From Hormiphora californensis (taxonomy: Eukaryota; Animalia; Ctenophora), in NCBI GenBank assembly GCA_020137815.1, contig CM035355.1, forward strand, positions 5,952,001 to 6,016,000: a DNA stretch of 64,000 nucleotides, in the 5' to 3' direction. Positions 2,087 to 64,000 of this stretch are shown piece by piece. Position 1 is the stretch's first letter, and every line of letters begins with the position of its first letter. Made by a program: the position numbers and the translations under genes. Under the pieces are notes generated by a model. That model saw nothing but the letters and a program-made list of their open reading frames with translations, made no database searches and was not told the DNA's origin.

Positions 2087-5000
2087 ATACTCTCCAGTTT
2101 CTCCTACCCGTCTTGGTTTTGCAGATCTTTCTCAAGGGATCCCCGGGAGCTGTTGATGGAATTCTGGCCGAGATCAGAGCTGTACTATACGCCACACAGA
2201 GTGACCAGGTAAGCCAGTTTAATAATTCAATCCCACCTTCTATTGATGTTTTGAACTGCTTGGTTTGGTTTCTGTCCGTAAGGCGGGAACATCCTTTTTC
2301 TCGCTAATATCTACATCTCTTAGGTGAAAAGTGATGTGACAAAGATAGTAACCCAGACAATATTCTCCCTTCTTGACTATCTCAATTATTGGATAAACAG
2401 AAAACGGTCTAACGATCAAAAAGGTAGTTTCTTGTTCAAATAGTTTTCTGGTTTCCAATAAATATTTATATCTCCACAGCCCCTCTCTCTCTCTGACCTC
2501 TCTCGCCCATCCCCACCCTATCTCTCCACACCACCATTCTCTCTCCCTCCAGACGACGCACTAAACAGAGTATCTGGCACCCTGGACCGCATCTCAAAAC
2601 CTCTTGTTGCGGCATCTTCCTTCCACTGCGGTGCCTACCAACGGGCCCTAATGTACCTGGAGAGTCGTGGAGGAGGGGAGGGGGACGAGGAGCCGAACTG
2701 GGCTCTCCTTCATTCCATTTACTCCCACATGGGGATAGCAGAGGGGGTGGCCGGGGTCACTGCATCTCGAACTACACCCGCTACACTGCGAGAACAAATA
2801 CAGGGTAAATTCCATAGTTTTATTACCAAACTGGAGTTGTTGAATGTTCTAGACAGGGTTGCTATGTTCTAAGCAAGGAAATCCAAAATTAATCTTACAG
2901 CGGTCGAAACGAGTGGTAGGATCCAAGATTTAGGTATTATGTGTGAACATGGGATAACCCGGTTCCCCGAGGAACCCTATTTTGTTGAAGGAATGCTAAG
3001 TTGGCAACTACGCACTGGATTGGTATGTGTTTACCTTGTTTGAAATGTACTGTACCTGTAGTTTTATCCTTGATTTTTACCTTGCTTTCCATTGATTAGA
3101 TAAACCAATCACGCCCCCCCCCGCCTCACACCCACCCTCTCCACAGAATACCTCCCTGATATCACACGTGAACGATATTATCCGTGATAGACCCGAGATG
3201 ACGGAACATCTCAACAAATACCGAGTCCAGGCTGCCTGGTCTCTAGCCAGGTACATGTTTGTTTGTTTGTTTGTTTGTTTGTTTGTGATTGCTGTTTCTG
3301 GAGGATGACCTGCCAGGTGCATGTAGATCACCTTGTTATGTTCCCAAACCCCATCAGTACTTCTCTTACTTCTTCTCCCACGTGGAATGAAGAATAGGTT
3401 CTCCCCTATTTTTGTATGTTTTTATGTCACTCTGTCTTCTCTTAGTTGAAGTACCGACCTTGTCTATAACACTGATGGAGTACTAAACCCCATTCCCTGA
3501 TCAGGTGGGATACAATGGAGCAGTATGTAGCAGCCACACCAACTCAGACATCCTGGTCTGTTGGGGTAGGTAGGTTGTTGGAGGCGATTAGGGCACAGGA
3601 TAGACCCTCCTTTACTTCTTGCCTGAGCGACATGAGACTTGATCAACTGGTTCCACTTTCTGCTGCTGTTATGGAGGGCGGATCTTACGATAGGTAGGAG
3701 GGTGGATAATATATTAAGTTGGATTCTGGGTGTTTTAGGGTAAGAGTTGAGGTAGACTAGTGTCATGGTGTGCTCATAAAAACTCCCTAATCTGTATATT
3801 ACAATCACCTCTGTTCTCACTCTGTCACCTCATATATTATCATTCGTTCATCCCAGAGAGAATAATTAAAACTCTGTCACCTCTCTTCTCTATGTCACCT
3901 CTTTACTGCAGGTGCTACAACAACATACTAAATCTTCACCAACTGAGAGACGTTGAGGAGTGGGCGCAGTGCCTTCTCTTTGCTGACAAGCAGCCATCCA
4001 GAGATGAGATAACTAACAAAGCTAAAGAGGTATTTATATTTCTGGCTGTATATCATTGCTAGCTCTACCCCCTTTTCGCGAGCTCCGCCCTCCTTTTACA
4101 AATGTAAAGGAGGGTTAGAACATAACAATGTCTATCATGCTGTCCATACTTATACTGTGTATGTGGACTGTGGAATGTGGACCCCTATAACATCCCCCTC
4201 CCCATATCTAGTTCGATGGAAGATTACGAATTTTTCAGCCCCCCCCCCCCCACACATCCCCTTCCCCCTCTCCGTGCGCTCACGTTGAGAGGTAATGTCG
4301 TTACCAACCCTCCCCATATCTAGTTCGATGGAAGATTGCGGCTGATCCAGCACCCCCCCCCCCCCCTCCCTCTCTCCCATACAAACATCCCCCTCCCCAT
4401 AGTTCGATGGAAGATTGAGGCTGATTCAGGATGACTGGCAAAACAGAGAGGGTGTGTTCAAGTTACAAAGAGTGCTGCTATCAATGGTGGACAACAGATG
4501 GACAGATAGTCACAGTATTAAACTTGATGATAGTATAAGTGGTGTCGTCGGGGAAACACTCGCTGTCAATTGGCTGGAGAGTGCAACACTAGCCAGGTAT
4601 GTGAATTTAGATTAGTAACTATCTAACTTGAACTTATTTTGACTTAGCCCATATGACACCATGATCTCACAGTTGAGTGAACATGTTCCAACCTTCAATA
4701 CTACTTTGCTCTGATTTCAGGAAGGCTATGTTGATACCGTGTTGTGATGACGCTCTACAAAACGCAGCACAATACAACCCATCACACTTCAAGGTACCCC
4801 CCCCCCCACAATACAGCCCATCACACTTCAAGGTACCCCCCCCCCCACAATACAACCCATCACACTTCAAGGTACACCCCTCCCCACAATACAACCCATC
4901 ACACTTCAAGGTACCCCCCCCCCCACAATACAACCCATCACACTTCAAGGTACCACCTCCCAACAAAACAACCCATCACACTTCAAGGTACACCCCTCCC

Positions 5001-64000: not shown

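What the first reader, a model, noticed from the sequence alone, without database searches (positions are those of the whole stretch)
4769..62124. Recurrent duplication of exon/intron junctions: repeats are built from the splice sites themselves
Seen: unrelated repeats repeatedly start exactly at a junction, and their unit is exon end plus GT donor. Examples: ATR 4769 (x8) and 18535 (x~23); ARFGEF3 38333 (x3), 59503 (x3-4) and 60970 (dozens); the two-domain gene at 12708-12768 (x2). Diverged single copies occur at 5358 vs ~5526 and 56119 vs ~56143. The unit sequences share nothing except their position, across three genes and both strands. Inference: a mutational process targeted at splice junctions (e.g. 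pausing- or R-loop-linked slippage, or RNA-templated repair) and/or a splicing system tolerant of many identical decoy donors. It could be a route to intron expansion, intron sliding and new isoforms. I know of no named system that explains it.
Basis: partly seen in the sequence, partly recalled or inferred. Interest (0 to 1): 0.8.

Follow-up and report, generated by a model that had tools for sequence, protein, structure and literature searches.

The report
Comb-jelly splice-donor "mirage" repeats
In this stretch of a comb-jelly genome about one splice donor in ten has had its exon end and splice signal copied into the next intron, a repeat type already known from lancelets and a few human genes; it is likely harmless because the first copy is used, and it is here several times denser than chance.

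Summary
Of 78 modelled donors, 6 are the first unit of a 31-39-nt tandem array (2 to 34 copies) and 2 more have a decayed single copy. Six of 29 non-coding arrays span a donor (1.3 expected, P about 0.001); none spans an acceptor. Short-read contigs break where two arrays predict, so those are not assembly errors. One RNA contig uses the first donor at 59523. No unit boundary lies at the donor itself, which argues against copying from spliced RNA. Single acceptor-side copies also occur, but not above background. The type is named: amphioxus "mirages", and human F7, CBS, 6-16 and LMNB2 minisatellites. This scan has noted it before in other genomes, including a three-gene sea-urchin case. What is new is a ctenophore case and a measured donor excess that microhomology supply does not explain. 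Likely cause: ordinary local duplication, filtered by first-donor splicing, and favoured at exon edges because intron interiors differ between haplotypes. One selected window only; no genome-wide test was possible.

The parts
2087..26754 (+). ATR kinase gene, 25 modelled exons (5' part lies upstream or unmodelled); hosts nested genes
   Evidence: FAT domain; kinase exon hits ATR; one frameshift near 16740, probably an assembly indel
4768..5075 (+). 39-nt array x8 spanning ATR donor 4793; 26 exon + 13 intron nt; first 4 decoys in frame without a stop
5338..5531 (+). ATR donor 5358 and a 26-nt copy at 5506-5531, with a short dispersed element beside it; both exon-part differences are synonymous
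12694..12769 (-). 32-nt array x2.4 spanning the donor at 12757/12756 of a nested two-domain gene (12528-14989, 356 aa open, no Pfam hit for its two large exons)
18535..19427 (+). 39-nt array x23 spanning ATR donor 18560; read-through meets TAG at once
35096..61036 (+). ARFGEF3/BIG3-like gene (Mon2/Sec7/BIG1 family), 33 modelled exons; continues past 61036
   Evidence: HDS above cut-off, DCB below; six introns confirmed by RNA contigs
38334..38438 (+). 34-nt array x3 spanning donor 38357; middle copy lacks GT
   Evidence: X1 contigs end at 38361 and restart at 38404, X5 also restarts at 38404
56090..56147 (+). donor 56119 and a decayed copy with an 8-nt deletion (decoy donor 56144)
59503..59594 (+). 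31-nt array x3 spanning donor 59523; first donor used in RNA; a further decayed copy near 59680-59700
61030..62128 (+). 31/33-nt array x34 spanning donor 61036; 7 exon nt; 6-nt microhomology at its ends; read-through meets TAG
39160..39291 (+). acceptor-spanning single duplication (offset about 77 nt) at acceptor 39275/39276
   Evidence: bridged by X1 and X5 contigs
56706..56873 (+). old acceptor-spanning duplication (offset about 100 nt); RNA uses the exon-proximal acceptor 56843
30787..30838 (-). acceptor duplication (offset 32 nt) in a ZNF598-like gene, with branch-point-like motifs between decoy and true AG
31473..31531 (-). 24-nt array x2.5 of the intron end, stopping at the AG of acceptor 31472
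4196..4431 (+). three copies of the intron end before ATR acceptor 4429/4430
55380..55534 (+). decayed acceptor copy about 105 nt upstream of acceptor 55525/55526
63262..64000 (+). second copy of 59269-59970 with four array units, preceded by noisy sequence from about 62140; probably an assembly duplicate
   Evidence: 4 substitutions and one extra unit; single-copy depth in X1 over 59104-60100

Best explanation
These are 'mirage'-type minisatellites: short stretches spanning an exon end and its splice donor are duplicated into the intron, likely by ordinary local tandem duplication, are likely tolerated because splicing takes the first donor, and are likely over-represented at exon edges because that is where alleles stay alignable and one copy is preserved. 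Steps: (1) Birth by slippage or repair with breakpoints 7-26 nt inside the exon and 10-24 nt inside the intron (breakpoints shown; mechanism inferred). (2) Filter: wholly exonic duplications are purged, donor-spanning ones leave the mRNA intact (first-donor use shown at one locus), and short multi-copy acceptor arrays are disfavoured (0 seen; cause inferred). (3) Growth as ordinary VNTRs (interspersed variant units shown). (4) The residual 3- to 7-fold donor excess is inferred to come from exon anchoring: the exon half of the seed cannot be lost, and exchange between alleles needs the exon as flanking homology, while intron interiors are replaced between haplotypes.
For: Arrays and donor excess. 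First donor used: one spliced X7 contig runs 59342-59520 with no difference and joins 59822, GT..AG, with no extra 31 nt; this matches human F7 (PMC1557585) and amphioxus mirages (PMC3087553). Donor strength is ordinary (P 0.54). Microhomology of 3, 6 and about 11 nt at three of six arrays and a 7-nt match just past the end of a fourth. Variant-unit blocks recur inside the large arrays. Intron interiors differ between haplotypes: one X5 contig keeps three exon-bearing pieces but replaces 8 by 72 and 143 by 161 intron letters; further unaligned interiors at 59606-59765, 39541-39705, 40178-40260 (half depth in X1), 40454-40629, 41018-41178. A related ctenophore has 13% tandem repeats and high non-coding indel heterozygosity (PMC8527503). 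A locus fetched only by a shared dispersed element (L001) also has an acceptor duplication, 85 nt offset.
Against: Step 4 is not tested directly. Only 3 of 7 donor-side haplotype breakpoints lie within 32 nt of a donor (+12, +19, +32; others +74, +83, +95, +123), and for 5 of the 7 the letters between are not known. Sample S2 may mix individuals or a sister species. Two of six arrays have <=2 nt microhomology. Microhomology pairs are no denser across donors than inside introns (2.3 vs 2.7 per 10,000 at k=6), so simple duplication plus purging does not give the excess. A homology-edge process should act equally at acceptors, where no excess is seen, so the filter must carry the whole asymmetry. 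RNA covers only 1 of 6 arrays, one contig at depth 4.3, and decay of faulty transcripts could hide decoy use. Four of six arrays were not checked against reads.
Confidence: 0.55

Rival explanations
1. No special bias: duplications arise uniformly in a repeat-rich genome, exonic ones are purged, and this window is a lucky cluster picked by the reader.
For: With all local duplications counted, the strict donor excess falls to 7 vs 2.4 (P 0.009) and acceptors show none. The period >=30 cut that gives the strongest P was chosen after seeing the data; arrays of period 15-29 span 0 donors of 22. The window is one of very many scanned.
Against: The excess holds under all 8 array definitions and nulls tried (P 0.0015 to 2.4e-6), lies in three genes, and L001 shows a junction duplication (acceptor side) in 1.4 kb not chosen for it.
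Confidence: 0.2
2. Transcription- or splicing-coupled mutagenesis: pausing or R-loops just past the 5' splice site cause slippage or breaks there; or RNA serves as repair template.
For: The excess is donor-specific (6 vs 0). The two longest arrays are G-rich on the coding strand (skew 0.65 and 0.67). Two further arrays begin within 13 nt after a donor (45444, 38008).
Against: No array unit begins or ends at the donor (0 of 6), and units include intron sequence, so spliced mRNA or a cleaved 5' exon is not the template. The 4768 array has the opposite skew (-0.82) and two have none. Splicing polarity alone can produce a donor bias by selection.
Confidence: 0.15
3. The arrays are functional: ladders of donors that make isoforms or tune expression through decay.
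For: The ATR 4768 array would add 13-residue in-frame units at its first four decoys. Human 6-16 and CBS arrays use two extra donors (PMC1557585, introduction).
Against: Units of 31, 32 and 34 nt shift the frame, two arrays hit a stop at once, one middle copy has lost its GT, and the one RNA contig uses the first donor.
Confidence: 0.05
4. Assembly artefact.
For: The assembly has indel errors (52820, 52825, 53345), a noisy stretch after 62140 and a duplicate of 59269-59970.
Against: Short-read contigs branch where the 38334 and 59503 arrays predict, and bridge the 39276 duplication in two samples. The large arrays hold recurring variant units. Exact copy numbers remain uncertain.
Confidence: 0.03

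Closest known systems
Amphioxus 'mirages' (Adh3, globins BflGb6 and BflGb9, troponin C, PGBD5; PMC3087553 passages, PMC3902484 passage; original Canestro et al. 2002 not held)
   Same: Tandem repeats whose unit spans an exon-intron boundary, in several unrelated genes of one marine invertebrate, at both 5' and 3' boundaries; regular splicing reported unaffected; copy number differs between haplotypes; proposed route to intron gain; mechanism stated as unclear.
   Different: Here a ctenophore; units 31-39 nt (Adh3 10-72, globins about 155); a counted rate (8 of 78 donors) and a donor-only excess against a null, which the passages read do not give for amphioxus.
Human donor-spanning minisatellites: F7 IVS7 (37 bp), CBS IVS13, 6-16, LMNB2, PDGF (PMC1557585: abstract, introduction, discussion)
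   Same: First unit spans the exon-intron boundary; identical decoy donors follow; the most upstream donor is used (F7, LMNB2, PDGF).
   Different: Listed as a handful of loci in humans; here six arrays in three neighbouring genes.
Microhomology-mediated tandem duplication, MTD (PMC13167724, passages)
   Same: Neutral short tandem duplications, often with microhomology arms, depleted from coding DNA by selection.
   Different: Only about half of the arrays show arms >=3 nt, and arm supply is not higher at donors; that paper's text has no occurrence of 'intron' or 'splice'.
Tandem-repeat excess near intron ends in plants and green algae (PMC3887541, passages)
   Same: More tandem repeats towards intron ends than expected.
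   Different: The passages read discuss short motifs inside introns, not units that contain exon sequence and the donor.

Membership tests
Mirage / boundary-spanning minisatellite | Repeat unit spans an exon-intron boundary of the host gene | tested here: met
   6 arrays, 7-26 exon nt + 10-24 intron nt; donor 59523 confirmed by RNA, the other five from open-frame gene models
Mirage / boundary-spanning minisatellite | Extra copies keep splice signals | tested here: met
   GT intact in 6 of 7, 22 of 22 and 33 of 33 decoys of the three large arrays
Mirage / boundary-spanning minisatellite | Locus-specific unit, not a dispersed repeat family | tested here: met
   no distant match inside the window for any of the six; the rest of the genome was not available
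Mirage / boundary-spanning minisatellite | Normal splicing at the authentic site | tested here: met
Mirage / boundary-spanning minisatellite | Copy-number polymorphism between alleles | tested here: inconclusive
   3 vs 4 units in the two assembled copies of the 59503 region, but the second copy is probably an assembly duplicate; contigs cannot count units
Mirage / boundary-spanning minisatellite | Somatic instability (reported for amphioxus Adh3) | not testable with these tools
   no raw or long reads listed
Microhomology-mediated tandem duplication | Microhomology arms >=3 nt at the unit ends | tested here: inconclusive
   61036: 6 nt; 38357: 3 nt; 12756: about 11 nt (may be a truncated copy); 18560: 7-nt match 13 nt past the end; 4793 and 59523: <=2 nt
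RNA-templated insertion from spliced mRNA or a splicing intermediate | Copy boundary at the splice site, or exon-exon joins | tested here: not met
   0 of 6 donor arrays has a unit boundary at the donor; all include intron sequence
Introner / transposon target-site duplication | Junction copy is a short duplication flanking an inserted element | tested here: not met
   units are head-to-tail and 31-39 nt; the short dispersed element has 9-13-nt flanking repeats in 4 of 12 matches and sits beside, not between, array units. The 5358 single copy is ambiguous.

The most novel reading that the evidence does not exclude
In this ctenophore roughly a tenth of all splice donors genome-wide carry mirage repeats because exon edges are mutational hot spots: alleles are alignable only in exons, so repair or recombination between homologues keeps misfiring at the exon-intron homology cliff, and splicing polarity keeps the donor-side products. 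This would explain why mirages turn up in very heterozygous marine animals (lancelet, sea urchin, comb jelly) and give thousands of natural decoy-donor experiments.
Probability: 0.3. Interest if true: 0.72.

Novelty: new member of a known kind. Interest (0 to 1): 0.42.

Why it matters
The origin of mirage repeats is stated as unclear in the literature read, and they have been proposed as a route to intron gain. A genome where 8 of 78 donors carry them would make both questions testable by counting: whether exon edges are duplication hot spots, and whether first-donor choice is ancient (seen here in a ctenophore at one locus). If the excess is only local luck, this is one more host for a known oddity.

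Tried and rejected
No whole genome is held, so no genome-wide test. No RNA holder listed with certainty; X7 proved to hold spliced contigs, X9 laid nothing; no RNA cover over 38357 or 39276; these blanks are not evidence. Search for more loci through the dispersed element: 0 loci with a 29-nt pattern, 1 with a 20-nt pattern. Microhomology supply as cause of the donor excess: rejected. Unusual donor strength: rejected. An idea that intronic copies come from another allele's exon: 6 of 9 exon-part differences are synonymous (one mis-framed row dropped before counting), about 45% expected, not significant. An idea that acceptor duplications are always long (>=77 nt): broken by 30792 (32 nt) and 31472 (24 nt). 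A branch-point-like motif lies between decoy and true AG at 12 nt or more from the AG in 3 of 7 acceptor cases, is marginal in 2 and absent in 2. The 655 array was first counted as non-coding; it lies in a 7TM reading frame and was removed, but is still among the 39 events. Canestro et al. 2002 is not held. No supplements were read; those of PMC8527503 and PMC3087553 may bear on repeat distribution. Searches that found no report of this in ctenophores; no genome-wide test of boundary-spanning units.

Full report
Setting. The window is from a ctenophore: a nested 7TM gene has 18 close relatives of 19 hits, and the only close one that names an organism is from Mnemiopsis leidyi. Nested genes and dense repeats resemble Hormiphora californensis (PMC8527503, passages and heterozygosity section). 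The species was not determined and no whole genome is held. I modelled seven spliced genes by hand, giving 78 donors and 77 acceptors, median intron 205 nt. ATR is confirmed. Six of its introns are confirmed by spliced contigs of run X7 (five, one). ATR and the ARFGEF3-like model each keep one frame break, and reads show indel errors in the assembly.

Observation. All cited repeats are present. Units are 31-39 nt with 7-26 exon and 10-24 intron bases. Donors 5358 and 56119 have single decayed copies. In a junction-centred test 7 of 76 introns hold a copy of their own last 12 exon bases plus GT within two mismatches; an exon-internal control gave 0 of 76. With 61036, which has no modelled downstream exon, this is 8 of 78 donors.

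Chance. Placing each array's unit at random outside wholly coding DNA, 6 of 29 non-coding arrays of period 15 or more span a donor against 1.31 expected (P 0.0011), and 6 of 14 high-scoring ones against 0.88 (P 5.5e-5). Restricting to DNA within 200 nt of a junction changes little. None spans an acceptor. All six have period 31-39, while 0 of 22 arrays of period 15-29 span a donor. When all 39 non-exonic local duplications are counted, the excess is 7 against 2.4 for donors (P 0.009) and 3 against 2.4 for acceptors. So the donor excess is about 3- to 7-fold, in a window selected for it.

Acceptor side. Against a cross-intron null, 6 of 77 acceptors and 6 of 78 donors have an own-intron copy above the 99.9th percentile. 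The acceptor cases are mostly single or intron-only copies, and are not above the local background of duplications. L001, a 1.4-kb metagenome contig fetched only by a shared dispersed element, has an acceptor-spanning copy 85 nt upstream of an exon. Its taxon is inferred from that element.

Real or artefact. In run X1, contigs end at 38361 and restart at 38404, and end at 59532 and restart at 59552. These are the branch points that the assembled arrays predict, and the second restart includes a copy-to-copy junction. Run X5, a different sample, also restarts at 38404, and both X1 and X5 bridge the 39276 duplication. X1 may be the assembly's own source. The segment 63262-64000 repeats 59269-59970 with four substitutions and a fourth unit, but X1 depth there is single-copy, so it is probably an assembly duplicate.

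Splicing. One X7 contig (depth 4.3) runs 59342-59520 without a difference and joins 59822 across a GT..AG gap, so the first of three donors is used; the exon-proximal acceptor 56843 is also used. No other array had RNA cover. Read-through at 18560 and 61036 meets a stop at once, 31-, 32- and 34-nt units shift the frame, and only the 4768 array gives stop-free in-frame decoys.

Mechanism. No unit boundary lies at a donor and every unit holds intron sequence, which excludes spliced mRNA or a cleaved 5' exon as template. Microhomology is present at about half the arrays, in line with ordinary tandem duplication (PMC13167724, passages). But microhomology pairs are no denser across donors than in intron interiors, so something more is needed. 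The read data show intron interiors that do not align between haplotypes while exons do, and H. californensis is reported to have many non-coding indels. I infer that the exon edge both preserves one half of the seed and supplies the only flanking homology for exchange between alleles, and that first-donor splicing keeps the donor-side products. This step is untested; only 3 of 7 haplotype breakpoints fall within 32 nt of a donor. Transcription-linked slippage near donors remains open.

Known kind. Repeats spanning exon-intron boundaries are called 'mirages' in amphioxus, at several loci and both boundaries, with normal splicing and an unclear origin (PMC3087553, passages; PMC3902484, passage). 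Human F7, CBS, 6-16, LMNB2 and PDGF have donor-spanning minisatellites, and F7 uses the most upstream donor (PMC1557585, abstract, introduction, discussion). Earlier notes of this scan list single-locus cases in at least eight other genomes and a three-gene sea-urchin case, which gave me the term. My searches found no ctenophore report and no genome-wide test of such units.

Verdict. Real, a new member of a known kind, with a measured donor excess that deserves a genome-wide count. Interest 0.42.

Noticed in passing
window 4061-4128, 5466-5506, 23557-23616, 25072-25122, 58400-58475, 59595-59663, 60709-60748; L001 500-569: Short dispersed element (40-90 nt, conserved 3' end) with 9-13-nt flanking direct repeats in 4 of 12 matches; summed contig depth about 225,000 against about 60 for single-copy DNA in X1, so some thousands of copies.
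   Followed up: partly
window 40453-40490: A second very high-copy short repeat inside an ARFGEF3-like intron (bin depth 25,778 against about 60 in X1).
   Followed up: no
window 59033-59326, 39541-39705, 40178-40260, 40454-40629, 41018-41178: Intron interiors that are replaced or unalignable between haplotypes or samples while flanking exons align.
   Followed up: partly
window 41420-45330: A roughly 3.9-kb ARFGEF3-like intron that reads as one long inverted repeat centred near 43690-43860 (seen by eye); probably a foldback element.
   Followed up: no
window 8556-11879 (+), 12528-14989 (-), 19687-21564 (-), 21915-23290 (-), 23741-24961 (+), 45626-46846 (-), 52640-54600 (-): Several genes nested in long introns of ATR and the ARFGEF3-like gene: LDLa-7TM receptor, two-domain secreted-looking protein with no Pfam hit, BTB protein, 7TM receptor, nucleoside-transporter-like gene (label recalled, no Pfam hit for the piece scanned).
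   Followed up: partly
window 45444-45538, 56973-57035, 58745-58830, 58941-58968, 57711-57902, 40984-41161: A family of arrays built on an 11-nt CCATGG/GGTAAC-type motif; four begin within about 15 nt of a donor and the motif resembles a donor.
   Followed up: no
window 53995-54099: 22 nt of exon interior copied into the upstream intron 83 nt away; may be the remnant of an acceptor-spanning duplication.
   Followed up: partly
window 35919: Likely GC donor in the ARFGEF3-like gene (frame continuous).
   Followed up: no
window 62140-63260: Noisy sequence resembling an uncorrected read through the 61030 array, so that array may be longer than assembled.
   Followed up: partly
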